IMG/VR virus record: IMGVR_UViG_3300045988_147738
Coordinates: 1-38,431 of that record
Origin: a virus
Strand: one strand, 5' to 3'
DNA length: 38,431 nucleotides
Program-made: the position numbers and the translations under genes
Notes under the pieces: model-generated
Seen by the model: the letters and a program-made list of their open reading frames with translations, nothing else
Databases searched by the model: none
What the model was told of the DNA's origin: nothing
In this document: positions 12,754 to 37,800 of the stretch, piece by piece
Layout of the letters: each line of letters starts with the position of its first letter
Position numbering within the stretch: position 1 is the stretch's first letter

Positions 12754-12754
12754 A

Positions 12755-18036: not shown

Positions 18037-18066
18037 TGACACCTGGAAAAATTTTTTGTATAATGA
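18037..18066 (+). promoter_or_regulatory. consensus sigma70-type promoter for the late/structural operon
   Basis: TTGACAcctggaaaaattttttgTATAAT, followed by a GGAGG ribosome-binding site and the ATG at 18090. Confidence 0.6.
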
Positions 18067-19152: not shown

Positions 19153-19196
19153 AATTTTGAGATGCCTGTTATTGGATAGATATAAGGAGGAAAATT

Positions 19197-20393: not shown

Positions 20394-20394
20394 T

Positions 20395-22128
20395 ATGGCT
20401 TTATAGGATTTACTTGATTTATCTTAGAAGCGTAAAAAGATTGGAATTTCAGAGGACCGTCTTCGTGCGATTATACCAGAAGCAAGATAGTACATAGCCT
20501 TTTGGAGAGAATACCCAGATATGTTTATCGACTTCATGGCAGGACCTGATGGCGGCCCTCAACATTTTAAACTCTATTTTTATTAGAGAATCTTTTTGCG
20601 CGCTGCGATGCGTCATAAATATATTTATGCTGTATTCCCTCGTGCTTATTCAAAATCTTTTTTATCAATGATAGTCTTAATGTGTCGTGCGATTCTATAT
20701 CCTAGATGTAAATTATTTATTACTTCTGGTGGTAAAGAACAAGCGGCTGGAATTGTAAAAGAAAAAGTTCAAGAAATTTGTACTCTTATTCCTGCATTTT
20801 AGAAAGAAATAGATTGGCGTCGTGGTTAGACACTTGAAGGTAAGGATTATGTTAAATATGTATTTAAAAATGGTTCATATTTTGATAATATTGCTGCAAG
20901 AGAATCTTCTCGTGGTAAACGTCGCCATGGTGGTTTAATTGAAGAGTGTGTTGGCGTTGATGGGGATATTTTATCACAAGTTATTATTCCTACAATGAAT
21001 ATTTCTCGTATGTGTATGGATGGTACTACTCAACCTGATGAAACTCTTAATAAATCTCAAATTTATATTACTACTGCTGGATATAAAAATACTTTCCCCT
21101 ATGATAAATTAATCCAATTATTAGTTTGGGAGATTGTTAAACCTTAGCAATCTATTATTATGGGTGGTACTTATCGTATTCCTGTTTTAATGAAATTGTT
21201 AGATGCGAATTTTATTAAAGACTTAAAAATGGACGGAACGTTCAATGAAAGTTCATTTGACCGAGAGTATGAAAGTAAATGGTCTGGCACAGTAGAAGAT
21301 GCATTTTTTAATGCTGAAATATTTGATAGAAATAGAATATTAAATTAGCCTGAATATGAAGCATCCGGGCGTAATTCAAAATTAGCATCTTATGTACTTG
21401 CTGTCGACGTTGGCCGTAAAGGATGCGATTCAGTTATTTGTGTATTTAAAGTAACTCCACAATCACAAGGTGGTTCAATTAAAAGTTTAGTAAATATATA
21501 TACATTATCTGATGAACATTTTGAAGACCAAACTATTAAATTAAAAAAATTATATTATAAATATAATGCTGATAGAATTGTAATTGATGGCAATGGTTTA
21601 GGAATTGGTTTAATTGATTATATGGTTAAAACATAGATTGACCCTGAAACCAATGAAATTTTCCCTGATTTTGGTGTTGTTAATGATGATGATTTATTTT
21701 ATAAAAAATATAAAACATCTAATACAGTATTAGATGCTATGTATATTATAAAAGCTAATGCGCCACTTAATACTGAAGCTCATGCGATTGCTAAATCACA
21801 ACTTGCTTCTGGAAAAGTGAAATTTTTAATTGATGAGCGTGTAGCAAAAAATAAACTTCTTGCTAAAAAGAAAGGTCAAACCATGACTCCAGAATAGAGG
21901 GCAGAAGAATTAAAACCATTTACATTAACTTCCATATTAAAAGAAGAAATGATGAATTTGCGTGAAGAAACTGAAGGAGTAAATATTATCCTGAAGCAAG
22001 CAAATAAAAGTATCCGAAAAGATAAATTTTCTGCTTTTGAATATGGATTATATTATTTAAAATTAGAAGAAGATAAAAAGAAGAAACGTAAAAAGTTTAA
22101 TGCTAAAGATTGGTGTTTCTTGAATTGA
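20395..22128 (+). CDS. terL: terminase large subunit (about 577 aa) with about 10 in-frame TAG
   Basis: ATG at 20395 with a GAAGGA ribosome-binding site. Walker A-like FPRAYSKS and a LIEEC Walker B-like acidic patch. RNaseH-like nuclease region YVLAVDVGRKGCDSVICVF...IVIDGNGLG. Track ORFs 20596-20802 and 21160-21348 fall in the same frame. TGA stop. Confidence 0.7.
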
Positions 22129-22138
22129 GGAGGTAATT

Positions 22139-22495
22139 ATGAGAGCGTCTAGAGGCGAAATTAAAATTGAAGAGATTTTGCGACAAGCTGAATTACCATT
22201 TAAGATGGAATATATTTTTCCAGATTTGAAGGCACCAAGTGGTAGACCCTTACGTTTCGATTTTGTTGTTTTTGATGATGATGGTAGAATTGATTTTATT
22301 ATTGAATATTAGGGTAAATAGCACTATGAGCCTAGCGCAAAATTTGGTGGTAAAAAAGGTTTATATCAACAACAATATAATGATAATCAAAAACGACGTT
22401 TTTGTGCTTTACATGATTTTAAATTAATAGAGATTCCTTATACAGATGAAAATCTTATTACATATGATTATATAATGCAATTAGCTGGATATTAA
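22139..22495 (+). CDS. PD-(D/E)xK (DUF559/Vsr-like) endonuclease-fold protein (118 aa); 2 in-frame TAG
   Basis: RFDFVVFDDDGRIDFIIEY-Q-GKQHY fits the hhhD...hhE.G.QH core. GAGGAGG ribosome-binding site. Confidence 0.4.
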
Positions 22496-22507
22496 GGAGG
22501 TGGAATT

Positions 22508-24169
22508 TTGGATACTAAAGAATTATCACGTTAGGAAATCATCCACTCCAAAGGATTTAATATCAGCAATGGAACAAGTGATTATCGAACTGCTGATCCA
22601 ACAGAATATCGTAAGATAAAAGTCGGGGTTCAAACATTAGATGATGCTGTATTAGATTTAGGGTCATTTGCTCGACTATATCCTAATCGTCGTGGTCCAT
22701 GCCGCATGGTCACTAAAAATGATGTATTACGAGCTATGATAAATCGTGATATTGTTGAAATGCGTAGAATTTCTAATTTATTTTATGATATTAGCGGCAT
22801 TTATGAGCGAGTATGTAATTATTTTGCTTATTTGTATAGATATGATTGGTATGTCGCTCCAGAGATTTTAGATGATACGGTAAAAGATGAAAAAGTTTTA
22901 AAAGATTTTTCAAAGTTATTAAATTATTTAGATAATACTTATATTAAAAAAATCTGCGGTGATATTGCTCAAAGTATTATGAAAAATGGTTGTTATTATG
23001 GATATATAGTACAATCTGCAAATAGTTTAATGTTACAAGAATTGCCTGCTAGTTATTGTCGTTCTAGATATTTTGTGGCTGGTATGCCAGCGATTGAGTT
23101 TGATATGCGGTTTTTTGATTAGTTTCCAGACCCTAATTATCGTATGCGCGTATTAAAATTATTTCCTGAAGAATTTTAGCGTGGATATGTTTTATATAAG
23201 AAAGGAAAATTACTTCCTGATATTAAGGGAGATTATAGTGGAAGTTGGTATTTACTATCTCCAGAATTAAGTGTGAAATTTAATTTTAATGGTAGCGATA
23301 CTCCACCATTTATTAATTCTATTCCTGCTCTTATGGATTTAGATGCTGCTCAAGATTTAGACCGCAGAAAACAAATGTAGAAGTTGTTAAAAATTATTGT
23401 TCAAAAACTTCCTATGGATAAAAATGGTGATTTAATATTTGATATTGATGAATCTCGTGATATACATAATAATGCTGTTGCTATGTTATCAAGAGCCATT
23501 GGCGTTGATGTTTTAACAACATTTACTGATGTTCAATCTATTGATTTATCAGATAAAAATACTACAACTACTACAGATGATTTAGCAAAAGTTGAACGTA
23601 CTGTTTATAATAATTTAGGTATTTCTCAAAATCTATTCAATACTGATGGTAATTTATCATTAGAGAAGTCTATTCTTAATGATGAATCAACTGTTAGAAA
23701 CTTGTTGTTGCAATTTAACATTTTTTTTGATAGAATAGTAAAGATGAAAGTTGCGAACAATAAGAAATATAGTTTTAAATTTTATATGCTTGAAACTACA
23801 CAATATAATTATAAAGAAATGTCAAAATTATATAAAGAACAAACGCAACTTGGTTATTCTAAGATGCTACCTCAAATTGCTCTTGGTCACTCTTAGAGTT
23901 TTATTTTAAATACTGCGGTGTTTGAAAATGATGTGTTGAAATTAACTGAAATTATGATCCCACCATTAATGTCTTCTACTATGAGTAGTCAAGATGTTTT
24001 GGGTAATAAAGGTTCAAACAATTAGAATAAAACACAAAATAATCCAGGAAGTAGTAATCAATAGACTACTACAAAACAGACTACTGAAACAAAATAGTCT
24101 GGGCGACCTGAAAAGGCTGATGATTAGAAAAGTGAAAAAACCATAAAAAATAAAGAGTCAATGAATTAA
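22508..24169 (+). CDS. putative portal protein (about 553 aa) with about 9 in-frame TAG
   Basis: Size and position directly after terL. Track ORFs 22706-23122 and 23384-23896 share a frame. TTG start with an AAGGAGG ribosome-binding site. Only TAG interrupts the frame. Confidence 0.5.
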
Positions 24170-24180
24170 GGAGGTAAATC

Positions 24181-25773
24181 ATGAAGCATCAAAGTATTAA
24201 ACTTGAAACGCCTTGTGAATTTATTAATGTAACTCCTATTAATCCTTTGATTTCTAAATGCCAAATTAAAGTTTGCTACGTTGGGGATGAACCAAATCGC
24301 AATCGAAGCATTATTTCTAAAGAAACTGCAAGGGAGATGGCTAATAGTCTCCCTGGCAGTCCTATTGTTGGTTTTTACAATGAATCTAATGGAGATTTTG
24401 AGGAACACAATAGAATTATTGATATTTCAAATGGAAAGTTTGAAATGAAAGATACTACTAAACCTTATGGTTTTGTAGATTTAGGTGCCAAGGTTTGGTT
24501 TTAGAAATTTTTAGATGATGGCGTTAATGAACATGAATATCTTATGACTGAAGGATATTTATGGACCGGCCAATATCCAGAATGTAAGCGCATCATTGAG
24601 CAAGGCAATAATCATTCTATGGAGCTCGATGAAGGTACTTTAGATGGAACTTGGACGAAAGATAATAATGGAAAGCCGTAGTTTTTCATTATTAATGAAG
24701 CAATTATTTCTAAACTTTGTATTTTAGGAGAAGAGTGTGAACCTTGCTTCGAAGGCTCCTCTATTACAAAGTTTTCTCTTTCATTTGATGATAGTTTTAA
24801 AAATGAACTATACTCAATGATGAATGAACTAAAAGAATTATTAAAAGAAGGAGGAGCAAAAGTGTTTAATAGATATGCCGTAGAAATCGGAGATTCTCTA
24901 TGGAGTGCTTTATGGGAATATGTAAATAAGGCTTTCCCTGATGGCTCTAACAATTATTGCTCTAAATATCGTATTGATGGCGTTTTTGAAGATAATAGTC
25001 AGAAATTTGCTATTCTTCAAGACCGCGGCGATATGAAATATTATCGTTTAAACTTTTCTTTGAATGATTCTGATGGTCTTGTTCCTGGCGAAGGTTTAAT
25101 TGAAGTAACTAAATCTTATACTCCAGCAGCAGAGCCTCAGTTTGCTTTGGACGCGGTTGAAGCATATGAAACCGAGTTTAAGAAAAAGCAAGAAGAAGAC
25201 GAAGAAAATAAAAAGACAAATGATAATAAGGGCGATAATTCTGGCGACCCTGAGAACAAAAAAGATGATGGTTCTTCTAAAAATAATGGTCAAAAGTCAG
25301 AAAATGAAGATGACGATCCTTCAGAAGATGATGAGGATAAAAAGAAAAAGAAAAAGTATTCCTTGGATGAAATTGAAGAATATGTTAGCTTAAAGGCAGA
25401 ATATGAAGAGTTGCAAAATAAATTTAGTTTATTAGAGGCTGAAAATAAAACTCTAAGCGAAACTAATACTTCTTTGACTGAGTTTAAGAATAGTATTGAG
25501 CGCAAGGACAAAGAAGCTATGATTCAATCATTCTATATGCTGTCTGATGATGATAAGAAAGATGTTATTGATAACATTGATAAATATTCTGTTGATGATA
25601 TTGAAGCAAAACTTTCTGTTATTTGTGTTCGCAACAAGGTTAATTTTAATCTTGATGATGATAATAATGATAAAGGCCCAACTACCTATAATTTAAGCAA
25701 TTTAGATGATGACAGAGATGCTGGAATGCCAGCTTGGGTCAAGGCTGTTTTAGAATCAGCCAATAAAAACTAA
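24181..25773 (+). CDS. prohead protease (U35/S78-like N-terminal domain) fused to a scaffold-like acidic coiled-coil region (about 530 aa); 2 in-frame TAG
   Basis: N-terminal CYVGDEPNRNRSII...GSPIVGFYNESNGDFEEHN resembles the HK97-family prohead protease. The C-terminal half is a D/E/K-rich low-complexity coiled coil. Track ORFs 24181-24504 and 24817-25773 share a frame. Confidence 0.5.
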
Positions 25774-25791: not shown

Positions 25792-26727
25792 ATGTTTAAG
25801 GATTTTTTAAATTCTCGTTTAGGCGTTGGTAAAAATCCACCTAAGTCACAGGCTAAGTATGTTGAGTTTGGTTATGGTCAGGTTGAGCCAAATCACCTGT
25901 CTGCACAAAGAACCGCTCAAATTTATGCTCAGTTGCCTGCTAACAAGGATATTAATATTCTTGAAAACGGCCAGTTTGTCAAGTATGATTATGCTGCTAA
26001 TGCCAATGGTATTGGTGAAGTGAATTTTACTGGCAAGGGCGAGTGGATGCTAGTTTATAATGAGATTAAGTTATATCGCGATCATCCTGATGGAACTAAG
26101 CAGTGGGATTGCGAATTTGCTATGCTAAAGGATGACTATCAGGCTCGTATTTATTCTCCATATGATTGGGAGCATACCGAGGTTGAATATGGTGGACGTT
26201 TCTGGAATGGTGTTGATGAAACTGGTGCTGATCACAAGGTGCTTGAGCACACTGTTGCTTTAGACCAGGGTCTAAAGACTGTTACCATCGCTGGCGAAGT
26301 TTATGACGTTAAGGACAATAAGTTTACTTATAATGGTGTAGAGTATGAGATTGATCCTAAGACCAATCAGACTAAGACTCCTGTGCCTGTAAAGTATGCT
26401 TATGATAAGGTTTTAACTGATGTCGCTGACATTTACGAAGAGCTGACTTGGACTAATGATCCATATAAGAAGCTTGGTGTTTATCATGAGAAGCGCATGA
26501 CTCCAGGCACTGCAATGGTTCCTCGTGTCTTCAAGACTAATGTTGGTGATCATTATACTACTAATATGATTAATGAAGATAGTGTTTCTGTTGGTGATAT
26601 TTTAGCTCCAGCAGCTGCTGACGGAATTCTTGTAAAAGATGAGAGTCAGGATATGAAGTGGCAGGTTGTTAAGGTATATACTATGCCTGATGGACAACGT
26701 GGCGCTAAGATTCTACGTATTGCGTAA
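25792..26727 (+). CDS. structural protein (311 aa), possibly a capsid decoration or auxiliary capsid protein; no TAG
   Basis: Intact standard ORF with a GGAGG ribosome-binding site. GC is higher than in its neighbours. Confidence 0.45.
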   Translation: MFKDFLNSRLGVGKNPPKSQAKYVEFGYGQVEPNHLSAQRTAQIYAQLPANKDINILENGQFVKYDYAANANGIGEVNFTGKGEWMLVYNEIKLYRDHPDGTKQWDCEFAMLKDDYQARIYSPYDWEHTEVEYGGRFWNGVDETGADHKVLEHTVALDQGLKTVTIAGEVYDVKDNKFTYNGVEYEIDPKTNQTKTPVPVKYAYDKVLTDVADIYEELTWTNDPYKKLGVYHEKRMTPGTAMVPRVFKTNVGDHYTTNMINEDSVSVGDILAPAAADGILVKDESQDMKWQVVKVYTMPDGQRGAKILRIA

Positions 26728-26744
26728 GAAAGGAGAGAAGAATA

Positions 26745-27851
26745 ATGTTAGATAGAAACAATTTAGTTGCTTTAATGAAGACTGTTGCTAAGGCTGATCC
26801 TTCTTCTCCTGTGGCTTACAGTTATAATGGTCAGAACCTTTCTTATGAGGCTCTGAACGATACTTTACGTAATGAGATGAATGAGCTAGCTGGTACTAAT
26901 GCTCTATATCGTGAAAATAAAAATTTAATTTTCTCAATGATTGAGGAGACTTTGGATGAAGTTCTTCCTAAGAAGGTTTCTCAATCTTATGAGCAGTTTG
27001 CTGAAGTTAAGCAGTTTGCTCAGGGTGATAAACCCATTTTCCGTCGTCCTCTAAACACACGCGCACGTGCTAAGCAGTTTGTGACTCGTGTTGGACTGGC
27101 TGGTATCTATGAAGTCTTCAAGCTGGGACCTGCTGAGAGCGAGAGCTTTGAGGTCCGTACCTCTGCTATCGGTGGAGCTGCTCAAATCGGCTTCGAAGAG
27201 TTCTTAGATGGTCGTGTTGATTTTGCTGAAGTTACCAAGATTATTATGGATGGTATGGATGAACTGATTTACAAGGAAGTTGCTTTGGCTTTGAAGTCTT
27301 CTATTAATCAGCTACCTCCTGCTAACCGTGTTGCTGCAGCAGGTTTTGATGAAGGTGCTATGGATCGTTTGATTACCATTGCTTCTGCTTATGGTACTCC
27401 TACTATTTATTGTACTTATGAATTTGCTGTTCGTATGATTCCTAATGAAGCTTGGCGTTATACTGAAGCTATGAAGACTGAGCTGTGGAATACTGGTCGT
27501 TTGGCTACCTATAAGGGAACCAAGGTTGTTATTCTAGAACAGGGCTTCGAAGATGAAAGTAATACTCGTAAGGTTATTGATCCTGGCTACGCTTGGATTA
27601 TTCCTACTGGTGTTGATGGCAAGCCTGTAAAGATTGCTTTCGAGGGTGGAACTATTGTTGATGAATTCAGCAATTACGATCGTTCTCGTGAGATTCAGGT
27701 TTATAAGAAGGTCGGCGTTGGTTGTATGTTGGCTAACAACATTTGCTCTTATGTTGACACTTCCTTAATGGGTCAAATGTATACTTGGAATTATGATGGC
27801 ATTACTGGTAAGGTTGTTACCTATGATGGCCGTAAGAGTGGTACTATTTGA
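26745..27851 (+). CDS. putative major capsid protein (368 aa); no TAG
   Basis: Size and position after the protease-scaffold gene. AGGAGAG ribosome-binding site. Followed by a strong terminator. Confidence 0.5.
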   Translation: MLDRNNLVALMKTVAKADPSSPVAYSYNGQNLSYEALNDTLRNEMNELAGTNALYRENKNLIFSMIEETLDEVLPKKVSQSYEQFAEVKQFAQGDKPIFRRPLNTRARAKQFVTRVGLAGIYEVFKLGPAESESFEVRTSAIGGAAQIGFEEFLDGRVDFAEVTKIIMDGMDELIYKEVALALKSSINQLPPANRVAAAGFDEGAMDRLITIASAYGTPTIYCTYEFAVRMIPNEAWRYTEAMKTELWNTGRLATYKGTKVVILEQGFEDESNTRKVIDPGYAWIIPTGVDGKPVKIAFEGGTIVDEFSNYDRSREIQVYKKVGVGCMLANNICSYVDTSLMGQMYTWNYDGITGKVVTYDGRKSGTI

Positions 27852-27867
27852 TTAAAACCTTAATATA

Positions 27868-27918
27868 ACTATTGTTTAAGGGGAGAAGGGATTTACTCCC
27901 TCTCCCCTTATTTTTTTT
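27868..27918 (+). terminator. intrinsic terminator after the capsid gene
   Basis: AAGGGGAGAAGGGAtttaCTCCCTCTCCCCTT followed by TTTTTTTT. Confidence 0.7.
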
Positions 27919-27939
27919 AGAGAAAAAGGAGATAATAAA

Positions 27940-28527
27940 ATGATTCATTCTGAAGATATGTTTAATGTAAAAAATAGAAGTACTAGTGTTGTTGTATATA
28001 GAATTCCTGAGAGTAATTTGAGACGTGAGTGGACGCCTGGTGAAGTAAAGCGCATTCCATTTAGTGAATTAGAAAAATTGACTTATCAACCTGGTGGTCG
28101 TGAGTTAATTGCTAATTTTTTACAAATTATGGAAAATGAAGTTACTGATGATTTAAATGTCCATCGTGAACCTGAATATAATATGTCAGAAGAACAAGTG
28201 CGTGATTTAATTCTTAGTGGTTCTATTGATGCATTTTTAGATGCTCTTGATTTTGCTCCTATTGGAGTTATTGATTTGATTAAAACCATGTCTGTTCAAC
28301 TACCCATTACTGATATGGCTAAGCGTGAAGCTCTAAAAGCTAAAACTGGTTTTGATGTAGATAAGGCTATTGAAAATGACCGCGCTAGTAAAGAAGATGA
28401 TAAAAAGGAAACTATCGCAGATAAACCAGCTGAAAGACGTGTTACAGAATCTGCTCCCGCAGGACGTCGTACTTCTGGAAATGCTTACAAAGTAGTAAAG
28501 CAAACTGAAACTAAATCTGCTGAATAA
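27940..28527 (+). CDS. hypothetical head-associated protein (195 aa); no TAG
   Basis: Intact ORF with an AAGGAGA ribosome-binding site. Confidence 0.45.
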   Translation: MIHSEDMFNVKNRSTSVVVYRIPESNLRREWTPGEVKRIPFSELEKLTYQPGGRELIANFLQIMENEVTDDLNVHREPEYNMSEEQVRDLILSGSIDAFLDALDFAPIGVIDLIKTMSVQLPITDMAKREALKAKTGFDVDKAIENDRASKEDDKKETIADKPAERRVTESAPAGRRTSGNAYKVVKQTETKSAE

Positions 28528-28548
28528 TAAATAAATAGGAGGCGTATC

Positions 28549-29136
28549 ATGGGAACTAAATTCACTGATATTTATAATCGCTTCCTTGGGAAAATTACTG
28601 ATGACCTTTATATTGAATTAACTCCAGAAGATACAATTAAAGATTTACGTGCAATACTTTTAAATATTTTACCTGAATTTGAATTTCCTAGATTTGATAT
28701 TTATGATTATACTATTGATTAGGAAATTAAATATGAAGATGAAATATTAGAAGATGATTTTGTAATTGGTCTTTTGTGGGAAGATGAAATAGATGAAGAA
28801 TCAGAAATCCGCCCTCCTCGTGTAATGGTAGAGCATTCATCTTTTGGAGCTGAATTAACACCGGAGGAAATTAATATTTTAGCTATATTGATGATGGTGA
28901 ATTGGGTACAACGCCAAGTCACTTCTATTGAACACACTCGTATGAAATATAGTGGTTCAGATTTTAAAATGACTTCATAGGCTAATCATTTACAAAAATT
29001 GATGTCTTTATTAAGTGAATGTTAGAGACAATCATTCCATATGCAACGTTTATATAAACGTCGTAAATTAGTAGAAGGGAAATATGAATCCAATTGGGGC
29101 GTATTTCATTATAAGAATTATCCTTATGATAACTAA
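28549..29136 (+). CDS. putative head-tail connector (gp6-like) protein (about 195 aa); 3 in-frame TAG
   Basis: ATG at 28549 with an AGGAGG ribosome-binding site. Track ORF 28774-28980 lies in the same frame. TAA at 29134. Confidence 0.4.
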
Positions 29137-29425
29137 ATATCATACAGATATTTCTGATGAAGTCATGGAGAAAAATATAGTAAGATTAACTAATCAACTG
29201 TGGAAATTAATCCCTATGAGAGAAAATGAAGAAGATTGGGATAAACAATTAAATACAGTTATTATTGAAATTGCGGGCTTAAATGAAATTTTTATTTAGG
29301 ACCCGCGATTTTTATAGTTGCTTAGTAAATTAGAAGGGCTAAATGTTTTAAATGATATTGAGTTCTCAATTTATAGAAAAACTGTATTTGAATGTATTAG
29401 TTTATTATAGGAGATTAAAAAGTAA
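29084..29425 (+). CDS. hypothetical protein (about 113 aa) overlapping the previous gene; 3 in-frame TAG
   Basis: Track ORF 29084-29299 extends to the TAA at 29423 when TAG is read through. An alternative start ATG lies at 29126. Confidence 0.35.
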
Positions 29426-30579
29426 TGCCAAAACGTCCAGAAAAGATGGAAAAATTATTGCCTTATGGTTTAAATACTAATAAAAGTGTAAATCTTGTAG
29501 GGGCTCGTTTAGGTGATACAAGTATAAAAATTCCTTAGCCAGATTCAGTTGATGGTAGTTTAGATATGGCTAAAAGATTAATGAGTGCGGGTGGTTTTGC
29601 CCAACAGTAGCGAATGATCAAAGATAAACGACATTCGTTAGATCAAGCCACTAAGTATTCTTATTAGGCGGCTTGGGTGCGTAAATGTGCGGCTACAGAG
29701 GTAGAAACTAAAAAAGAAAAAAATATTTTACCTCCTGTTCGAGCATTAATGAATCCTAATAAATTAAAATAGGATTATGATGATAAAGTTATTTCAATTG
29801 GATTTGAACATAAATTTAATTGTGGAGATGTATTTGAATGGTGTAATACTGGAACTTATTGGTTAATTTATTTATAGGATTTAGATGAATTAGCTTATTT
29901 CCGTGGGGACGTTCGTAGATGTACTTATCAAATTCCATTTATGATGGATGATGAATTAAATGTAGTTTATGTGGCTAATCGAGGTCCAGTAGAAACTAAA
30001 ATTGATTATATTCAAAAACATACTACTAGTGTAGATAATCCAAATTATTCTTTAAATTTATTAATTCCTAAAAATGAAAAAACTTTGAAATTTTTTAAAC
30101 GGTATTAGAAGTTTTATATTTGGCCGGAAGACGGTTCAGTTTATGATACTTGCTGGAGAGTTGAAGCTGTAAATAATATTAGTATGACTGGCGTTATTGA
30201 AGTAAATGCTGTTGAATATTATGCTAATGAATTTACAGATGATCGAGATGCAGGATTAGCTGATGTATTTAAAATACCAGATCCAATATTAAAACGTAAA
30301 ATTATAGATGATAATAAAGATAATAATAAAATTTTAAATATAGTTGGTGAAACCTTTATTAAGCCTAAAAAAGAATATGATTTTAATTTAAATATTAAAA
30401 ATGTTCGAGGAACTTGGAAAATTGAAGGCAATGATGTCCCTATTCGAATTATTAGTGAAGGGACTAATGATAAAGGATTTTCAACAATTAGACTTAAATG
30501 GGACTCTACTTATAGTGGTTAGTTTGATTTAGTATATGGAACTAGTCGAAAAACTATAGTAGTAGAATCATTGTTCTAA
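29425..30579 (+). CDS. structural protein (about 384 aa); 7 in-frame TAG
   Basis: ATG overlaps the upstream stop (taATGcca). Frame verified codon by codon through to track ORF 30184-30522. TAA at 30577. Confidence 0.45.
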
Positions 30580-30601
30580 TGAGTAAAAGGAGATTGAAAA
30601 C

Positions 30602-31204
30602 ATGAGAATAGACGGATATCATATTCCAAAATCAAGTTTTCTATCTATGGAAAAAGATACTGGGATTATTATTAATGAAATATTAAAAAATAATCGTTTA
30701 AAAAAATTATTATATTATACTACTAGTGATGCTATGGAAAAACCTAATCTTACTGAAGATTAGTCTTTAAGTTTACTAGGAACTAATATTAAAATAGTGC
30801 CTAAATTATATGTTGATGGTTCTGTTTTAAATTATGTATTAATTAATTTCGATAATTTTACTCCCAGTGAAAATCCAGAGTTTAGAGATAATACTATTCA
30901 ATTTGATATTGTATGTCATTTTGACCAATGGAATTTAAGAGATTATGCATTACGCCCATATAAGATTGCCGGAGAAATTGATTCAATGTTTAATTTGAAA
31001 AAATTAACTGGTATTGGTTATTTAGAATTTATGGGTGCTACTTAGATTGTCTTAACTGATGAATTTGCTGGGTTATGTTTGATGTATCGCACTGTCCATG
31101 GCGGCGAAGATGAAAAATATATGCCAACTTATCCTGATAAAAATAGCGGCAAAATTAAAGAGGAACAATTTATTAAAGAATTTAAGGATTACATTAGTAA
31201 ATAA
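30602..31204 (+). CDS. putative neck or tail-completion protein (about 200 aa); 2 in-frame TAG
   Basis: AAAGGAGA ribosome-binding site. Track ORF 30797-31045 lies in frame. Confidence 0.4.
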
Positions 31205-31932
31205 TGGATTACCGCTTAAATTTAATTTGCGGAACTGATATGTTGATTCCTGAATGTAATTTAGTCGCTCATCAACCAAGGATAAAAGAAATTTCATTTA
31301 TTGGGGAATCTGATTTTTTTATTGGAGCATAGACCCTCTGTTTACATAAAACAATGTTTATAGAGGACAAAACTATTCTAGACAGTATCAATAATTTTTA
31401 GATATTTATGACGATAATGTTATAGGATGAAACAAAGGATAAAAAAGCTAACATTTTAAATGTTTTAAATTTATTATTTCCATCATATAAAATAAATGTG
31501 ACACCAAACTCATTATTATTTATAAAGGAAGGTGTTCCTCCTATTACTGTAGATGGAAATAATTTTGAAGCATTACAAGAAGTGTTGCGTTTAATCTTTT
31601 GTATGCACAATGGCCCGATGGATTAGTAGGCTTTCAATCCTGCCAACGATAAGGCTCGTGAGATTGCTCAAAAGCTAATGCGAGGGAGACAGCGAGTTGC
31701 CGCCCAAAATGGTAATTCGAATGTAAGTGTTTTTAGTTAGTATATGTCAATCTTGACTATTGGATTAGGTTCAATGTCATTATAGGATTTGACAAATCTG
31801 ACAATGTTCCAATTATATGATTTAATGGAGAGATATACGCTATATACTGCTTGGGACCTGGATGTGCGCTAGCGTTTAGCTGGCGGTAAACCTGAAGGGA
31901 CCCCGGATAATTGGATGAAAAACATTCATTAA
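31204..31932 (+). CDS. hypothetical structural protein (about 242 aa); 8 in-frame TAG including a TAG-TAG doublet
   Basis: Start overlaps the upstream stop (TAATGG). Frame verified line by line with no TAA or TGA. Invisible in the standard-code track. Confidence 0.4.
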
Positions 31933-31959
31933 TTAAAAATACAAGGAGGAAATAACACT

Positions 31960-33039
31960 ATGAAATTCGGTGTCCGCGAAATTTGTGATGTTGTATTAAA
32001 GGCTAAGTCAGCACAGAAAATTGGTAATAAGATATTCTATGCTGGTGAACCTGTTATTTATTTTGACACCCTAAAAACTTCTAGTTTAGAAGGTGCTGCT
32101 ACCACTGTATATGCACAAGGTGGTCGTGGTAACTCTCGTTTGGTAGCATGGGAAGGTGAAAGAACTCTAACCTTCACTATGGAGGATGCTTTAATTTCTC
32201 CTGAAGGATTTATGATTCTTTCCGGTGCTGGCCTAATTGCTGCTAATGCAGATAAGCCAATTTATCAGCATATGACTGAAACTGTTGATGCTAGCGATTC
32301 TTTACGTTTTAAGTTTGATGCTGCTGGATTTAAGTTCGCTGTTTATACTGAAAATAAGCCTTATCTACCTGCTAATGCTGGTGATAACTTCGCTTATGTA
32401 ATGTTTATGAAGAATGGTGAAATTACTACTGAGCCTTATATTCCTGTTCATGAGGGTGATGATACAACTATTGATAATGAGGCTATGCCTGAGACTGTAA
32501 CTGATGTAGATGGTAAAACTTATTATCGTGTAGCTGTTATGGATCATAAAATGTATGTTGGTTTGGCTTCTTACGAGGATGAGCAAAATGGGGGCCATAA
32601 GTATACTCCAGAAAGTGGAGATAATACTGCTTATGATGTAGTTACTCTACCAAATCGTCTAAAGTTCGATTCTGTGTTAGTTGATTATTACACTGAGCGT
32701 AAGTCTGGCGCTACTCAGATGGAAATTACTGCTGATAAGTTTGGTGGTAACTATTATCTTGAGGCTTCTACTCTATTCCGTGATACTAATGGTGTAGATA
32801 TGCCTGCTGAGTTTATTATTCCTAACTGCAAGATTCAGTCTAACTTCACCTTTACTATGGCTTCTTCTGGTGATCCAAGTACATTTACTTTCACCTTAGA
32901 CGCATTCCCTGATTATACTCGTTTCGATCATAGTAAGAAAGTTCTGGCTGCAATTCAAGTAATTGAATATCTGGATAATGAGGATTTACATCGTCATAGC
33001 ACAGTTCACCAGAAATCTCACGATAGTTATAATTGGTAA
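31960..33039 (+). CDS. putative major tail protein (359 aa); no TAG
   Basis: Intact ORF with an AAGGAGG ribosome-binding site, followed by a terminator. Its position before the chaperone and tape-measure genes matches a siphovirus tail module. Confidence 0.45.
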   Translation: MKFGVREICDVVLKAKSAQKIGNKIFYAGEPVIYFDTLKTSSLEGAATTVYAQGGRGNSRLVAWEGERTLTFTMEDALISPEGFMILSGAGLIAANADKPIYQHMTETVDASDSLRFKFDAAGFKFAVYTENKPYLPANAGDNFAYVMFMKNGEITTEPYIPVHEGDDTTIDNEAMPETVTDVDGKTYYRVAVMDHKMYVGLASYEDEQNGGHKYTPESGDNTAYDVVTLPNRLKFDSVLVDYYTERKSGATQMEITADKFGGNYYLEASTLFRDTNGVDMPAEFIIPNCKIQSNFTFTMASSGDPSTFTFTLDAFPDYTRFDHSKKVLAAIQVIEYLDNEDLHRHSTVHQKSHDSYNW

Positions 33040-33057
33040 TTTAATTAAAAATTTTAT

Positions 33058-33095
33058 GGGGAGAGGATTTATTCCTCTTCCCATTTTTTTATTTT
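33058..33095 (+). terminator. intrinsic terminator
   Basis: GGGGAGAGGAtttaTTCCTCTTCCC followed by ATTTTTTTATTTT. Confidence 0.65.
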
Positions 33096-33107: not shown

Positions 33108-34199
33108 ATGGTTAATCAAGAAGGTATAGTTTTTGGAGGATATTTTTTATATAAAGAAGAATTTAAAAAGATCTTTCAAGAATTTTGGAATAGTGAATTA
33201 AAAAATATTTTTATTGAAAAAATATAGACTATAATTAAAAATTATTTAACTGAGGTAAATGGTAATATATTAGCAGTAAAAAATCCAAAAGCATTATATA
33301 ATTCTTGGGAATAGATTAATACTGAAGTATTTGGAAATACTCCAGTTTCTTTATTAGGTATTTTAAAATGGGATAAAAAATATCATTATACTTTTGTTAA
33401 TAAAGAATCTGATTTAATAAATAGCTATACTTCTCAGAAAATACAAGTTAATAAGACATTAATAGAAAAATATCGAACAACTTTAAATACAATATATTAG
33501 AGTGATATTGAAATGGCTTTAGAAGCACATTTTAATGATATGAAAAAATCAATTGATAAAGTAAAATTAACTAAGGTGGAAGGGCATGACGTACATTTAA
33601 CTTTAGGTAAATATTATAAAAATACAGAATGGTATAAACGAATTCAAGATACACATATGACTAATAAGAGTTTATCTGAAATATTTTATAAGAAAAATAA
33701 AGTAGCTGCTCAAGGATAGATGTATGATGCTTTTATTAATCATATTAGTCGAAAACATGTGGAATATTTAAGAGCTTTAAATAATTTAGACAGTCCAATA
33801 GAACTTTCTCCATTTGACAAATCAGTTTATAATGAAGAAGGACGATGGAATTTTATCCAATTAGTTATGGACTCTTTGAATTCAACGGCTTGGTATCGCG
33901 GAGGTGATGCTATTGCGGCGGATAGCAGAACTCGTCAAGTATTATTTAATATTTAGGTAAAATCAGGTAAAAAAGGACGTAGTTGGGATATTGCTAGTAT
34001 TTAGTTTTTAACCTTTATTAATAATTTAAATTCCTATTTAAATAAAACGGGAGAGGAAATAGCTGTTTTTTTATATGAAAATTTAAAAATTACTATGGCG
34101 ACATCTGTTGATAGTAAAAAAATTGATAAAGATTTAGAAAAAGAAATTTTAGATAATGTAAGAAAAAATTTAAAATTATCTGGGTTGACAATAAACTAA
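33108..34199 (+). CDS. hypothetical protein (about 363 aa); 6 in-frame TAG
   Basis: Track ORFs 33513-33719 and 33720-33956 are joined in frame. Frame verified with no TAA or TGA until 34197. Confidence 0.45.
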
Positions 34200-34242
34200 A
34201 TTTTTAGTATAATATAAATAAGTGTAAAAGGAGGATTTTGAA

Positions 34243-34767
34243 ATGGCAAAAGTAACATTTTCAAAGTTAAGTTTAAGTAAAAATACAGAAGTATCAACCT
34301 TTGAATGGGGAGACTAGATTATTGAAGTCAAAGATTATCTTCCTATTGGAGATAAGTTAAATCTTATTTCAGAAATTATTAATGATTCCATTGATAAAAA
34401 CGGTTATTATAACCCTGCCCGTGTATATCTTCATACTATTTTAAAAATGATTATGGCATATACAAATATAAGTTTTACTGACAAGCAAAAAGAAGACCCA
34501 AAGAAATTATATGATTTAGTAGTAGGTTCTGGTTTTTCCGCTAAGGTATTTGGAGAAATTAATCCAGGAGAATATGCACAAATTAAAAGTTGGGTAGCAG
34601 AAACTATTCATTCAATTTATGAGTATAAAAATTCTGCGGCGGGTATTTTAGATATTATTTCAACCGATTATAAAGATACAACATTTGATATGGAACAATT
34701 AACTAATGATATTCAGAATCCTGAAACATTAGGATTACTAAAAGATGTTTTGACCAAGTTGGGATAA
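34243..34767 (+). CDS. putative tail assembly chaperone (about 174 aa); 1 in-frame TAG
   Basis: AAAGGAGG ribosome-binding site. Lies immediately upstream of the tape-measure gene. Track ORF 34447-34767 is in frame. Confidence 0.4.
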
Positions 34768-34814
34768 TTAAACTATTTAATTTTTTAAAATTAAATAGGA
34801 ATAATCAAGTGTAT

Positions 34815-34853
34815 GGGTGTGAGAAGATTATTTCTCACACCCATTTTTTTTGT
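34815..34853 (+). terminator. intrinsic terminator or attenuator before the tape-measure gene
   Basis: GGGTGTGAGAAgattatTTCTCACACCC followed by ATTTTTTTT. Confidence 0.6.
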
Positions 34854-34882
34854 TTATATTATGAGAGAAAGGAGTCCCGTTT

Positions 34883-37800
34883 ATGGCAAAACAATTAAAT
34901 GTTGCATTAGATTTTACTGCGAATACTACTCAAGCGAAATAGCAGATTTAGGAATTGCAGTAGTTATTAACTAAAGTAGCATATAGTACTGATTTAGGTA
35001 TTGATCCCAGTCAAATGAAAGCAGCTTCTGCTGCGGCTAAAGAGCTAGCTATTCATTTAAATGAAGCATATAATTAGAAAACTGGTAATTATGATTTAAG
35101 TAAATTAAATGCTAGTTTAGCTAAATCAAAAACTAATGTGACTGAATTATCTACCAGTTTACTTCAAGCGGGAACAACTGGACAACAAGCATTTATAAAA
35201 TTAGCTCAATCAATAGCGGCGGCTGATTAGCCAATGATTACATTAAATGCTCGTTTACAAGATTTTTTAACTACTGTTAAAAATACAGTTAAATGGCAAA
35301 TTTCTTCAAGTATGATTCATGGTGTAATGGGGGCTTTGCAAGGAGCTTATCATTACGCTTAGAATTTAAATAGTTCATTAAATGATATCCGAATTGTTAC
35401 TGGTCATAATATTGACTATATGGATAAATTTGCTGATAGAGCAAATAAAGCAGCAAAGGCATTAAGCACTTCTACATTAAATTATACTGATGCTTCTTTG
35501 ATTTACTATCAACAGGGTTTATCAGATAAAGAAGTAGAAGATAGAACTGCGGTCACAATTAAAATGGCTAATGCTGCTGGCGAAAGCGCAGATAAGATAT
35601 CAGATCAATTAACTGCTGTCTGGAATAACTTCTATGATGGATCATAGTCATTAGAATATTATGCTGATGTTATGACTGCATTAGGTGCAGCTACTGCATC
35701 AAGCACAGATGAAATTGCGGCTGGATTAGAAAAATTCGCGGCTGTGTCTAATACAGTAGGTTTAAGTTATGAGTACGCTACTTCTGCTTTAGCAACTGTT
35801 ACTGCAACAACTCGTCAATCTGCTGATGTAGTTGGTACTGCATTTAAAACATTATTTGCTCGTATTCAAGATTTAGAGTTAGGTAAAACTCTTGATGATG
35901 GTACTACATTAGGCAAATATTCTCAAGCTCTTGAAACTGTTGGTGTTTCTATTAAAACAGCAGACGGCGAGTTGCGAGAGATGGATGATATTCTTGATGA
36001 TTTAGGTGAAAAATGGAATTCATTTGACGCTGAAGGGAATCCATTAATTTCTAAAGATGCTAAAGTGGCATTAGCTCAAACTGTTGCTGGTGTTCGTCAA
36101 TATACACAATTAATGGCATTAATGGATAAATGGGATTTTATGAAAGAAAATCTCGAAACTGCTCGTAATGCTACTGGAACATTAACTGAACAATAGAAAA
36201 TTTATGAAGAATCTTGGGAAGCCGCTAATAAGCGTTTACAAGCTTCATTCCAAGCTTTATACACCGATTTAATTGATGATAAATTTTTTATTAAATTTAC
36301 AGATTTTTTATCTGATATGGTTGATGGTGTTGATTCTTTTATTGATAAAATTGGTGGAATTAAACCTTTATTATTAGGATTTTTATCATTAATTGGTTAG
36401 ACATTAAGCTCTAAAATTTAGCCGGCTTTAGATAATGTAATAAATAATATTCAAATTTTAGTAGGTGGAGCAGATAAAGTTTATGCTAAAATATCTAAAG
36501 AAACTTCTGATAATATCAAACTATAGTTAGAAGCAAGAACTAATTTTACTCCAGCTCAAGAGTAGGAATTAAAAAATTCTTAGGAATTATTAGGAGTAAA
36601 AAATAAATTAGCAACAGTGTCTGAAAATTTATCTGTTAGTGAAAAAAGATATTATGAAAATGAAATTCAATTTATTGAAAAACAATAGTAGGAAACAGTA
36701 AAATTAATTAAATTACGAGAACAATTAAATAAAGATACTAATCCTATTGATTTAAATGCTCCTAATCAAATTTATGATTATGGTACTAGTTATTTACAAA
36801 AATTAAAAGCTAATAAAGATAAAGCTTAGTAGTCATATCGTAATAATCCATCTGAAAGTAATTAGGCAGATTTAGTTGCTGCTAGAAATGATTTAGTTTT
36901 TTTCTAGAATGATAAATTAGATGTTCAGGAATAGGCAGCGTCTCAATTAGCACAAACAGTTGAAAAATTAACAAATGCTTATAAAACTTTTATTGAAGTT
37001 GGGCATGAAACAAATGAAACTTTATTATCAGGAAATGATTTATACTCTTTAACAATTGAAGGACTTAAAAAATTAGGGACTCAGTATACTAAATTAAATG
37101 GTGAAATTGATTTTGAAACGGTTCGAACTTCTATTGATATGCTTATTGGTCCAGTAGATGAAGTAACAAAATCTTCAAAAGATTTTCAAAATGCTTTAGA
37201 AGCTATTGAAAGTGCATTAGATGGAGGAAAGCCAAAAGAAGTAAGTTAGGCTTTTAAATAGTTGGCAGAAGTTCTAAAAAATACTACTGTTGAAGGAAAA
37301 AATGCGGCTAATGCTTTAGAACAAATGGGTCGTTCAACAAGTAAATCAATGAAATAGGCTAAAGGTGATATTTAGGCGCATGGTAAAGCATTAAAATAGT
37401 GGGGATAGGCTACTAAAGAAGCAAAAGAGGCACAAGAAGGACTCAATCAAGCAGTTATTAATTTTAAACCAGTTCATAAAATACCTTTTACTTAGAGTTT
37501 AATATCATTGGCTTCTGCTTGTGGTTCTGCCGCGATGACATTGCAATCATTTAATTCTATGATGCAAACATTATCTGATCCTGATATTTCTGAATGGGAA
37601 AAATTTACATCTGTTTTATTTAGTATTTCTATGATTGTTCCTGGGGTGTCTAGTGTTTTACGAGGATTAGGTACTGCTAATGCCTTTTTACAACAATAGT
37701 CTTAGAAACAATTTCTTACACTTTCTTTAGAAAATGTAGCGATAGAGGCTAATACAATAATATTAACTCAGAATCAAAAAAAGAAAATAGATAATATATT

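What the first reader, a model, noticed from the sequence alone, without database searches (positions are those of the whole stretch)
25792..33039. TAG-free islands with raised GC coincide with the most abundant virion proteins
The capsid-region genes 25792-28527 (three genes) and the major tail gene 31960-33039 contain no TAG codons. They have visibly higher GC and are each followed by a strong terminator. Flanking minor structural genes carry 2-10 TAGs each. This suggests TAG decoding is slow or limiting, so the highest-expression genes avoid it, or TAG density may tune protein stoichiometry.
Basis: seen in the sequence. Interest (0 to 1): 0.55.

Follow-up and report, generated by a model that had tools for sequence, protein, structure and literature searches.

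The report
Abundant virion genes avoid recoded TAG
In a gut phage that reads the stop codon TAG as glutamine in its late genes, the capsid and tail-tube genes keep TAG out, just as they keep out other poorly read codons; this is ordinary selection for efficient translation, seen here very clearly.

Summary
The + strand from 18090 to 38431 is a phage late module that reads as full-length genes only if TAG is a sense codon. Fourteen genes carry 92 in-frame TAGs. Four genes (25792-26727, 26745-27851, 27940-28527, 31960-33039; 1233 codons) carry none. Chance P is 7e-10 from the codon rate, 2e-6 from position-specific composition, and 2e-7 among Gln-family codons.

The pattern holds in 61 recoded relatives from IMG/VR, in 15 MAG contigs, and in the distant recoded phage phAss-1.

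TAG-freeness is one part of a strong general codon bias in these genes: AAG, CAG, CGT and GCT are preferred, and ATA and CGA are near zero. The same genes show this kind of bias in 19 standard-code relatives and in a cultured Enterococcus phage, so the bias predates recoding. Across 16 genes, a bias index built from the standard-code clade without Gln codons predicts TAG use in the recoded clade (Spearman -0.93).

Homologues are annotated as major capsid protein and major tail protein. The other two genes are unidentified. Strong terminators follow the capsid and tail genes only.

Best reading: TAG is a tolerated but costly Gln codon, removed from the most highly translated genes. This is a conventional mechanism, already noted anecdotally for one crAss-like phage.

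The parts
25792..26727 (+). TAG-free gene g25792 (311 aa), directly upstream of the capsid gene. It is a head-module protein of unknown role (weak N-terminal match to phrog_35301).
   Evidence: 0 TAG, 13 Gln codons (10 CAG), GC 0.40, AAG 70% of Lys codons in recoded relatives. 0.08 TAG per 100 codons across 61 recoded relatives. No Pfam, PDB or annotated phage homologue. AF2 model poor, pLDDT 50. The syntenic gene in Enterococcus phage VRE9_2 is also phrog_35301.
26745..27851 (+). TAG-free major capsid protein gene (368 aa, phrog_4088).
   Evidence: 0 TAG, 11 Gln codons (8 CAG), GC 0.41. An 87%-identical protein is named 'major capsid protein' in nr. tblastn hits features annotated as major capsid protein in Bacillus phages Kirov, Thrax2 and Thrax3, and gives 41% identity to Enterococcus EF1 and 50% to phAss-1. 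0.05 TAG per 100 codons in 61 recoded relatives.
27878..27918 (+). Intrinsic terminator after the capsid gene (13-bp GC-rich stem plus T8).
   Evidence: Sequence read. The 96-nt stretch folds at -26 kcal/mol (centroid hairpin -20.3), z = -2.35. A hairpin of -10 kcal/mol or stronger plus a T-run follows the capsid gene in 80% of 79 relatives.
27940..28527 (+). TAG-free gene g27940 (195 aa, phrog_30998), function unknown, with intermediate codon bias.
   Evidence: 0 TAG but only 5 Gln codons (all CAA), GC3 0.15; window-only P(0) = 0.04-0.10. Family-wide 0.17 TAG per 100 codons, and 12 of its 15 TAG columns are singletons.
31960..33039 (+). TAG-free major tail (tail tube) protein gene (359 aa, phrog_2729 'virion structural protein').
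   Evidence: 0 TAG, 8 Gln codons (5 CAG), GC 0.38. tblastn hits features annotated 'major tail protein' or 'tail tube protein' in Bacillus phages Thrax2, KoopaTroopa and Nate, and gives 39% identity to Enterococcus EF1 and VRE9. It lies upstream of the chaperone-like gene and the tape measure gene. 0.06 TAG per 100 codons in 51 recoded relatives. AF2 model poor.
33056..33094 (+). Intrinsic terminator after the tail gene (12-bp stem plus T-run).
   Evidence: the stretch folds at -20.9 kcal/mol, z = -2.25. Present after the tail gene in 29% of relatives. In most relatives the terminator instead follows the next conserved gene, phrog_30570 (95%).
18090..25773 (+). Upstream TAG-containing late genes: sigma-like factor, phrog_3314, TerL, HNH, portal, phrog_3313. 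Together they carry 30 in-frame TAGs.
28549..31932 (+). Five TAG-containing genes between the capsid block and the tail gene (likely head-tail connector or minor structural genes): phrog_3853, 29637, 31155, 6123, 4051. Together they carry 23 in-frame TAGs.
33108..38431 (+). Downstream TAG-containing genes: g33108 (6 TAG), phrog_30570 (1), tape measure protein (32 in the window; 63 in the full 2772-aa gene in L100).
34813..34854 (+). Third strong terminator, after phrog_30570 and before the tape measure gene.
   Evidence: Conserved in 95% of relatives.

Best explanation
The window holds the late module of a roughly 200-kb phage, probably of a Bacillota host. In this module TAG is read as glutamine, most likely by a phage-encoded tRNA with anticodon CUA.

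In weakly expressed late genes, TAG behaves as a nearly neutral synonym of CAA and CAG, and it has drifted to the frequency that base composition predicts.

The genes made in the largest amounts are the major capsid protein, the major tail protein and two head-module neighbours. These are under strong selection for efficient translation. In them TAG is purged together with other disfavoured codons (ATA, CGA, GGG, AGA, and the A-ending codons of the four-fold boxes), and Gln is written as CAG.

The likely cost of TAG is slow or incomplete decoding. A single suppressor tRNA would have to compete with release factor 1, and it may be poorly charged because its anticodon is changed. That cost grows with the number of ribosomes that cross the codon.

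Shown here: the TAG pattern, TAG = Gln, the codon bias, conservation of both across relatives, and the suppressor tRNA in relatives. Inferred: high expression, the source of the cost, and the presence of the suppressor in this particular genome.
For: - The pattern is far beyond chance, including when composition is taken into account.
- It is conserved. In 61 recoded IMG/VR relatives the four genes have 0.05-0.17 TAG per 100 codons against 0.63-3.4 in other genes. In 15 recoded MAG contigs the figures are 0.087 against 1.48. phAss-1 (50% capsid identity, GC 44%) has 0 TAG in the capsid and tail genes and 3-7 in TerL, HNH, phrog_31155 and phrog_4051.
- The four genes have a codon bias across many amino acids: AAG 75% against 17%, CGT 75 against 39, GCT 83 against 53, ATA 1 against 20, CGA 0 against 18, CAG 62 against 7.
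- The same genes are biased in 19 standard-code relatives and in cultured Enterococcus phage VRE9_2. There the preferred Lys, Gln and Glu codons end in A instead, as expected if each phage tracks its own host's tRNA pool.
- A bias index trained on the standard-code clade without Gln codons predicts the TAG share in the recoded clade: rho = -0.93, or -0.90 without the two training genes.
- TAGs do arise in the four genes but do not persist. Each TAG column is shared by 1.3-1.8 sequences, against 3.5-14.7 in other genes.
- Protein conservation does not explain the pattern. g25792, g27940 and the tail gene are 64-67% identical across relatives, like portal. HNH is 86% identical yet has 2.25 TAG per 100 codons.
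- TAG = Gln. Of 192 columns that are at least 90% conserved in the standard-code clade and hold TAG in a recoded sequence, 95 are Q (background 4%). The total Gln-family frequency is the same in both clades.
- A roughly 90-nt tRNA(CUA), homologous to a phAss-1 suppressor, sits in a roughly 20-tRNA array in at least five recoded relatives.
- Conserved terminators directly follow the capsid gene and the tail unit.
- Head and tail genes are known to be biased towards host-preferred codons (PMC2266997).
Against: - Expression and virion abundance were not measured.
- The host is unknown, so it cannot be shown that the preferred codons match the host's abundant tRNAs.
- g25792 and g27940 have no identified function, and both structure models failed.
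- The suppressor tRNA was not located in the window's own genome.
- Shine-Dalgarno sites are similar on nearly all late genes, so ribosome-binding-site strength does not mark these four genes.
- The relatives are not phylogenetically independent, and no formal phylogenetic correction was made.
Confidence: 0.8

Rival explanations
1. Timing or escape from the code switch. The capsid and tail-tube genes are kept TAG-free so that they can be translated under the standard code, before the suppressor tRNA is active. TAG-containing genes (terminase, portal, connectors, lysis) would be gated by the switch.
For: Recoded stops have been proposed to gate late and lysis genes (Borges et al. preprint). The four genes are fully translatable under the standard code.
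Against: This reading does not predict the bias at a dozen other amino acids, the same bias in standard-code relatives and in an Enterococcus phage, or the graded rho of -0.93. The sigma-like factor at the head of the module carries 4 TAGs itself (0-7 in recoded relatives). If it drives late transcription, capsid mRNA would appear only after suppression is active. That step is an inference. Making capsid protein without portal or connectors has no obvious benefit.
Confidence: 0.08
2. Adaptive throttle. The number of TAGs in a gene has been selected to set protein stoichiometry, with each TAG lowering yield by the suppression efficiency.
For: TAG share falls in step with inferred expression. 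Genes of intermediate bias (phrog_3313, phrog_30570) have intermediate TAG density.
Against: TAG positions are poorly conserved: on average 8-24% of sequences share a column, with many singletons. They are uniform along genes (KS p = 0.83). In weakly biased genes the counts match composition-based expectation (for example TerL 10 observed against 6.0, portal 9 against 7.0, p6123 2 against 2.0). This is what a balance between mutation and selection predicts without adaptive tuning. Counts differ freely between close relatives.
Confidence: 0.1
3. Horizontal import. The GC-richer, TAG-free genes were acquired recently from standard-code phages and have not yet accumulated TAGs.
For: Modules in this family are mosaic. 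Capsid identity tracks g25792, g27940 and phrog_3313 (rho 0.80-0.94) but not TerL, the tail gene or phrog_4051 (rho 0.12, 0.24, -0.02). Standard-code and recoded clades are interleaved.
Against: The pattern holds in all 61 recoded relatives, in phAss-1 and in MAG contigs, which would need constant re-import. phrog_3313 co-varies with the capsid module yet carries TAGs. The tail gene is a single TAG-free gene between TAG-rich neighbours. Codon usage of the four genes resembles the rest of the late module (r = 0.73) more than the GC-rich region of the genome (r = 0.36). TAGs do appear in these genes, mostly as singletons.
Confidence: 0.03
4. Chance, or a by-product of amino-acid or base composition.
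For: g27940 alone is not significant (P = 0.04-0.10). Raised GC lowers the expected TAG count a little.
Against: The composition-aware expectation is 13.2 TAGs, P(0) = 2e-6. Gln content is normal (37 Gln codons), Fisher p = 2e-7. Out-of-frame TAG is present. The result replicates in independent sets.
Confidence: 0.005

Closest known systems
TAG-to-Gln (code 15) recoded phages: crAss-like, Lak, the 'gemstone' clades of Borges et al., and phAss-1 (PMC10607447)
   Same: In-frame TAG appears in late structural genes. TAG aligns with Gln. Relatives carry a suppressor tRNA(CUA). The early genes and the late-module stops examined here do not involve TAG, and standard-code sister clades exist (literature). 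phAss-1 shares an orthologous late module, with 50% capsid identity.
   Different: The papers read here describe recoding as a property of late or structural genes as a block. They do not report that the most abundant virion genes inside the block are exempt. The Borges preprint never mentions capsid.
Egyptian amber-reassigned Crassvirales genus (bioRxiv 10.64898/2026.08.21.746148)
   Same: The authors note that the major capsid gene shows no alternative codon usage. They suggest that capsid genes are under pressure to match the host's translational preferences. This is the same observation and the same explanation.
   Different: That work covers one genome of an unrelated order and makes a qualitative remark. 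Here the pattern extends to the tail gene and two neighbours, is quantified in about 80 relatives, is compared with standard-code sisters, and is shown to be graded.
Translational selection on phage head and tail genes (Lucks et al. 2008, PMC2266997)
   Same: [quoted passage not shown] The four genes here show this kind of bias.
   Different: Here one of the disfavoured codons is a reassigned stop codon, and the contrast is within the structural module (major against minor virion proteins). The host is unknown.
Enterococcus phages EF1 and VRE9_2 (cultured, standard code; I recall these as Schiekvirus siphophages)
   Same: VRE9_2 has the same gene order and PHROG families from TerL to the tape measure gene. 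The capsid, phrog_35301 and tail orthologues are the most codon-biased genes there too.
   Different: There is no recoding. The preferred Lys, Gln and Glu codons end in A rather than G. The genome is about 140 kb.
Weak amber suppression by tRNA-Gln(CUA) (E. coli supE), and avoidance of rare codons such as AUA, AGA and CGA in highly expressed bacterial genes (from my own knowledge)
   Same: These give a mechanistic precedent for a CUA-anticodon Gln tRNA being an inefficient decoder that competes with RF1, and for rare codons being purged from highly expressed genes.
   Different: Neither suppression efficiency nor charging was measured for this phage's tRNA.

Membership tests
Code-15 (TAG to Gln) recoded phage late module | Conserved late genes are broken by in-frame TAG under the standard code and become full length when TAG is read through | tested here: met
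   18 contiguous ORFs from 18075 to 38431 with TAG as sense. TerL, portal and the tape measure protein are recovered with PHROG E-values of 1e-51 to 1e-81.
Code-15 (TAG to Gln) recoded phage late module | TAG aligns with glutamine in standard-code homologues | tested here: met
   95 of 192 conserved columns are Q against a 4% background. 95 of 115 conserved-Q columns carry TAG in some recoded relative. Gln-family totals are equal in both clades.
Code-15 (TAG to Gln) recoded phage late module | The genome encodes a suppressor tRNA with anticodon CUA | tested here: inconclusive
   Found in at least five recoded relatives (contigs 126669, 110853, 118370, 126226, 021254_000022), and homologous to a phAss-1 suppressor. 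Not found in the window, or in the roughly 53 kb of its probable source contig that could be fetched. Exact-pattern scans did not hit that contig.
Code-15 (TAG to Gln) recoded phage late module | Early genes are free of in-frame TAG, and TAG is not used as a stop in the recoded block | tested here: met
   0 TAG in 2878 codons of 25 minus-strand early genes. The late genes that end inside the window stop at TAA (15) or TGA (2).
Translational selection (major-codon preference) in highly expressed genes | A subset of genes has a distinct, restricted codon set across many amino acids that base composition alone does not explain | tested here: met
   Significant shifts for A, E, F, G, I, K, L, N, P, Q, R, S and T. 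Four-fold boxes prefer T-ending codons while K, E and Q prefer G-ending codons.
Translational selection (major-codon preference) in highly expressed genes | The bias sits in the same orthologues across relatives | tested here: met
   Recoded and standard-code relatives, phAss-1, Enterococcus phage VRE9_2.
Translational selection (major-codon preference) in highly expressed genes | Preferred codons match the host's abundant tRNAs or its highly expressed genes | not testable with these tools
   The host is unknown. MAG bin labels are mixed, mostly Bacillota. Indirect support: the preferred K, E and Q codons differ between this family (G-ending) and the Enterococcus phage (A-ending).
Translational selection (major-codon preference) in highly expressed genes | The biased genes are the most highly expressed | not testable with these tools
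   Inferred from homology to major capsid and major tail proteins and from conserved terminators. No expression data exist.
Programmed readthrough at a defined stop codon (regulated synthesis of two products) | One conserved stop codon at a fixed site in a conserved context | tested here: not met
   There are 6-69 TAG columns per gene. Each is shared on average by 2-24% of sequences, and positions are uniform along genes.
'Sapphire' clade of Borges et al. | Membership in the clade as defined by their phylogeny (about 200 kb, TAG recoded) | not tested
No reference sequence was compared.

The most novel reading that the evidence does not exclude
TAG density might be an evolved, graded throttle. 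Each in-frame TAG would multiply a protein's yield by the suppression efficiency, so the phage would set the relative amounts of its late proteins (0 TAG for lattice proteins, 1-3 for intermediate ones, up to 63 for the tape measure protein). The phage could then shift all of them together through the level of one suppressor tRNA. A wider version sees three translation regimes in one genome: a GC-rich, host-like early region, major virion genes optimised for host tRNAs, and AT-rich TAG-bearing genes that depend on the phage's own tRNA array.
Probability: 0.1. Interest if true: 0.7.

Novelty: new member of a known kind. Interest (0 to 1): 0.4.

Why it matters
The result suggests that a reassigned stop codon in a phage is not a free synonym. 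It still seems to carry a cost that selection can see, and that cost scales with expression.

This bears on why phages recode. In this family TAG sits at about its composition-expected frequency in weakly expressed genes, and is purged from highly expressed ones. That fits neutral spread after a suppressor tRNA was acquired, followed by purifying selection. It does not fit TAG placement being designed gene by gene.

There is also a practical consequence. Capsid and tail genes of recoded phages can look 'standard code'. Code prediction or marker-gene checks based on the major capsid protein alone can therefore miss recoding. In line with this, Cook et al. 2024 found the capsid protein with table 11 in 57% of code-15 genomes.

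Tried and rejected
- **Structure prediction.** AF2 models of the tail protein (alignment A1) and g25792 (A2) had mean pLDDT 53 and 50, with the conserved cores below 50. I ran no fold searches, because matches to such models would be meaningless.
- **Direct annotation of the four genes.** Pfam gave nothing. PDB sequence and profile searches gave only chance-level hits. The precomputed Pfam labels PF27364 and PF27173 are not in the local Pfam copy, so I could not name them.
- **RNA genes and close DNA relatives.** Rfam and ARAGORN found nothing in the window. Megablast against GenBank phages found no close relative.
- **Suppressor tRNA in the window's own genome.** I walked about 10 kb past the window end and about 5 kb past its start. 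I ran three exact-pattern scans and one neighbour-protein scan. The tRNA turned up in relatives only.
- **Ribosome-binding-site strength.** Nearly all late genes have AGGAG-type sites, so I rejected this as a discriminator.
- **5' enrichment of TAG.** Positions are uniform along genes, so I rejected this.
- **Host identification from MAG bin labels.** The labels are too mixed to use.
- **Odd coding in the first 16 kb.** It first looked like non-coding or unusually coded sequence. It resolved into small standard-code genes on the minus strand.

Full report
**What the window is.** The window is 38,431 bp with 37% GC. It has no tRNA genes and no Rfam matches. Under the standard code the + strand from about 18 kb onward breaks into short ORFs. 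With TAG read as sense it becomes 18 contiguous genes.

PHROG searches identify, in order, the following genes:
- a sigma-like factor (18090-19154)
- phrog_3314
- the large terminase subunit (20395-22128)
- an HNH endonuclease
- the portal protein (22508-24169)
- phrog_3313
- an unknown gene (25792-26727)
- phrog_4088 (26745-27851)
- phrog_30998 (27940-28527)
- five genes between the capsid block and the tail gene
- phrog_2729, a 'virion structural protein' (31960-33039)
- two small genes
- a tape measure protein that runs off the window end

The gene order and PHROG families match the late module of cultured Enterococcus phage VRE9_2 one for one. The first 16 kb is a separate matter, covered under side observations.

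**Checking the observation.** Counted from the likely start codons, fourteen late genes hold 92 in-frame TAGs in 5384 codons (1.7%). Their GC is 0.35-0.41, against 0.25-0.34 for the rest.

Three null models all reject chance:

| Null model | Expected or compared | P |
|---|---|---|
| Overall TAG rate | 21 expected | 7e-10 |
| Each gene's position-specific base composition | 13.2 expected | 2e-6 |
| Gln-family codons only | 0/37 vs 92/250 | 2e-7 (Fisher) |

Under the composition model, the other genes have observed counts close to expectation. The four genes still contain 35 out-of-frame TAG trinucleotides, so the codon is avoided and not the sequence. Taken alone, g27940 is not convincing (P = 0.04-0.10).

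The terminator claim needs correcting. Strong hairpin plus T-run terminators follow the capsid gene (27878-27918) and the tail gene (33056-33094), and another lies at 34813-34854. None follows 26727 or 28527.

**What TAG encodes.** Eighty relatives were fetched from IMG/VR through the capsid protein. They split into 61 recoded loci and 19 loci with no in-frame TAG at all.
- At alignment columns where a recoded phage has TAG, the standard-code relatives most often have Gln (29% overall).
- Among columns at least 90% conserved in the standard-code clade, the figure is 95 of 192, against a 4% background.
- Gln-family codons have the same total frequency in both clades.

TAG is therefore read as Gln, as in other code-15 phages.

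A roughly 90-nt tRNA with anticodon CUA lies in a roughly 20-tRNA array in at least five of the recoded relatives. It is homologous to one of the phAss-1 suppressors. I could not find it in the window's own genome, of which only about 53 kb could be fetched.

**The pattern is a family trait.** TAG per 100 codons in the 61 recoded relatives:

| Gene | TAG per 100 codons |
|---|---|
| Capsid gene | 0.05 |
| Tail gene | 0.06 |
| g25792 | 0.08 |
| g27940 | 0.17 |
| All other late genes | 0.63-3.4 |

Fifteen recoded contigs from GTDB genome bins reproduce this, with 0.087 against 1.48. So does phAss-1, a TAG-recoded gut phage with only 50% capsid identity and 44% GC. It has 0 TAG in the capsid gene, the tail gene and their neighbours, and 3-7 in TerL, HNH, phrog_31155 and phrog_4051.

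TAGs do arise in the four genes but do not persist. There are 6-15 TAG columns per gene, each shared by 1.3-1.8 sequences on average. In other genes a TAG column is shared by 3.5-14.7 sequences.

Protein conservation is not the cause. g25792, g27940 and the tail gene are as diverged as portal (64-69% identity). The 86%-identical HNH gene has 2.25 TAG per 100 codons.

**What sets these genes apart.** They have a strong and restricted codon usage across many amino acids:

| Codon (share within its amino acid) | Four TAG-free genes | Other late genes |
|---|---|---|
| AAG (Lys) | 75% | 17% |
| CAG (Gln family, TAG included) | 62% | 7% |
| GAG (Glu) | 42% | 16% |
| CGT (Arg) | 75% | 39% |
| GCT (Ala) | 83% | 53% |
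| GGT (Gly) | 62% | 41% |
| ATA (Ile) | 1% | 20% |
| CGA (Arg) | 0% | 18% |
| GGG (Gly) | 1% | 11% |

Four-fold boxes prefer T-ending codons, so this is codon selection and not a GC shift. The raised GC comes from the G-ending Lys, Glu and Gln codons and from amino-acid composition (GC1 0.51-0.55 against 0.33-0.48).

The same orthologues are biased in the 19 standard-code relatives, with ATA and CGA near zero and CAG, CGT and TTC raised. They are also biased in the Enterococcus phage, where the preferred Lys, Gln and Glu codons end in A. The bias is therefore older than recoding, and it appears to track each host.

I built a bias index from the standard-code clade only, leaving out Gln codons. 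It predicts the TAG share of Gln-family codons in the recoded clade across 16 genes, with Spearman rho = -0.93 (p = 1e-7). Without the two genes used for training, rho is -0.90. Genes of intermediate bias (phrog_3313, phrog_30570) have intermediate TAG density.

**Identity of the four genes.**
- *26745-27851.* An 87%-identical protein is named 'major capsid protein' in nr. tblastn hits annotated major capsid genes of Bacillus phages.
- *31960-33039.* It hits features annotated 'major tail protein' or 'tail tube protein' in large Bacillus siphophages. It sits upstream of the chaperone-like gene and the tape measure gene.
- *g25792 and g27940.* These remain unidentified, and the AF2 models were too poor to use. 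That they are abundant is inferred only from their codon usage and their position beside the capsid gene.

Conserved terminators give independent though indirect support for high expression. They follow the capsid gene in 80% of relatives and the tail-chaperone unit in 95%.

**Explanation and rivals.** The best-supported reading is a balance between mutation and selection. After the suppressor tRNA was acquired, TAG became a tolerated Gln codon and drifted to its composition-expected level in weakly expressed genes. In the most heavily translated genes it is purged along with other poorly decoded codons.

The physical cost is inferred, not shown. It could be slow decoding, premature termination through competition with RF1, poor charging of a CUA-anticodon tRNA, or poisoning of lattices by truncated subunits.

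The rivals fare as follows:
- *Escape from the code switch (timing).* It does not predict the bias at other amino acids or in standard-code relatives. The sigma-like factor at the head of the module itself needs TAG suppression.
- *Adaptive stoichiometry throttle.* It is not excluded. However, TAG positions are unconserved, are uniform along genes (KS p = 0.83), and occur at neutral frequency in weakly biased genes.
- *Import from standard-code phages.* The family is mosaic, but the pattern is universal, and the codon usage of the four genes resembles the rest of the late module.

**Relation to what is known.** TAG recoding of late genes is well described. So is bias of head and tail genes towards host-preferred codons. 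A 2026 preprint on one crAss-like phage already remarks that its capsid gene has no alternative codon usage, and it offers the same reason. Cook et al. found the capsid protein with table 11 in 57% of code-15 genomes.

What this work adds is the extension to the tail gene and two neighbours, the quantification across a large family with standard-code sister clades, and the graded relationship. I rate this a new member of a known kind, of moderate interest.

**Side observations.**
- *GC-rich early region.* The first 16 kb consists of small minus-strand genes with Shine-Dalgarno sites, GC 0.42-0.56 and GC3 up to 0.84, against about 0.30 GC for the rest. They have no in-frame TAG. The same GC-rich region lies next to the late module in relatives, so it is not an assembly chimera. 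Its codon usage shares the AAG, CAG and GAG preference and the ATA avoidance with the four TAG-free genes.
- *Code switches.* Standard-code and recoded clades are interleaved by capsid identity, which suggests repeated code switches.
- *Possible opal suppressor.* Some tRNA arrays also carry a tRNA(TCA), although TGA still acts as a stop in the late module.

Noticed in passing
window 1-16000 (minus strand): A block of about 16 kb of small standard-code genes with Shine-Dalgarno sites, GC 0.42-0.56 and GC3 0.4-0.84, sits inside a phage that is otherwise about 30% GC. These genes have no in-frame TAG, and most have no PHROG function. Their codon usage (GCC, GGC, CTG, ATC, AAG, CAG) is unlike the late genes (r = 0.10). 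The same GC-rich block flanks the late module in close relatives and, less strongly, in distant ones, so it is not a chimera. It could be a host-like early region or an acquired block.
   Followed up: partly
window 1984-2559 (-) and 2627-3022 (-): An AT-rich insert (GC about 0.21) lies inside the GC-rich block. It contains one ORF that is continuous only if TAG is sense (192 codons as a stop-to-stop ORF). Beside it is an ORF whose sequence looks GIY-YIG-nuclease-like by eye. This is probably a mobile homing-endonuclease cassette.
   Followed up: no
window 18036-18064 and 18090-19154 (+): A perfect sigma-70 consensus promoter (TTGACA, 17 nt, TATAAT) precedes a sigma-factor-like gene (phrog_5767, E = 1e-53). 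That gene carries 4 in-frame TAGs and a C-terminal zinc-ribbon or HNH-like motif. If it drives late transcription, it can itself only be made after TAG suppression is active.
   Followed up: no
window 33108-34199 (+), flanked by 33056-33094 and 34185-34213: A very AT-rich gene (GC 0.25, 6 TAGs) has no PHROG or Pfam match and lies between the tail gene and the chaperone-like gene. An orthologue was detected in only 9 of the 80 relatives. It is bracketed by a terminator upstream and a perfect sigma-70 consensus promoter downstream, and looks like an inserted accessory (moron-like) gene.
   Followed up: partly
L024-L036, L055-L058, L064-L065 against the other loci in L001-L080: Nineteen relatives have no in-frame TAG at all, yet they share 81-87% capsid identity with the window. 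By capsid identity they fall between recoded relatives (77-100%). The genetic code seems to have switched more than once within this family.
   Followed up: partly
L239 16911-16990, L249 16489-16568, L167 7726-7805: Some recoded relatives carry, next to the tRNA(CUA), an 80-nt tRNA with anticodon TCA (ARAGORN calls it 'SeC'). It could be an opal suppressor, yet TGA still ends genes in the late module of these phages.
   Followed up: no
L100 7148-15463: The tape measure gene that runs off the window end is 2772 codons long as a stop-to-stop ORF in the probable source contig and holds 63 in-frame TAGs. The two distal tail genes after it hold 30 and 13.
   Followed up: partly
L001-L080, identity to the window by gene: The modules are mosaic. 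Capsid identity across relatives tracks g25792, g27940 and phrog_3313 (rho 0.80-0.94) but not TerL, the tail gene or phrog_4051 (rho 0.12, 0.24, -0.02). Head, tail and packaging modules appear to be exchanged within the family.
   Followed up: partly
L289 (Enterococcus phage VRE9_2, 1-22000): The whole late module, from TerL to the tape measure gene, is collinear family by family with this cultured Enterococcus phage, including the HNH gene between TerL and portal. That phage could serve as an experimental stand-in for the uncultured gut family.
   Followed up: partly
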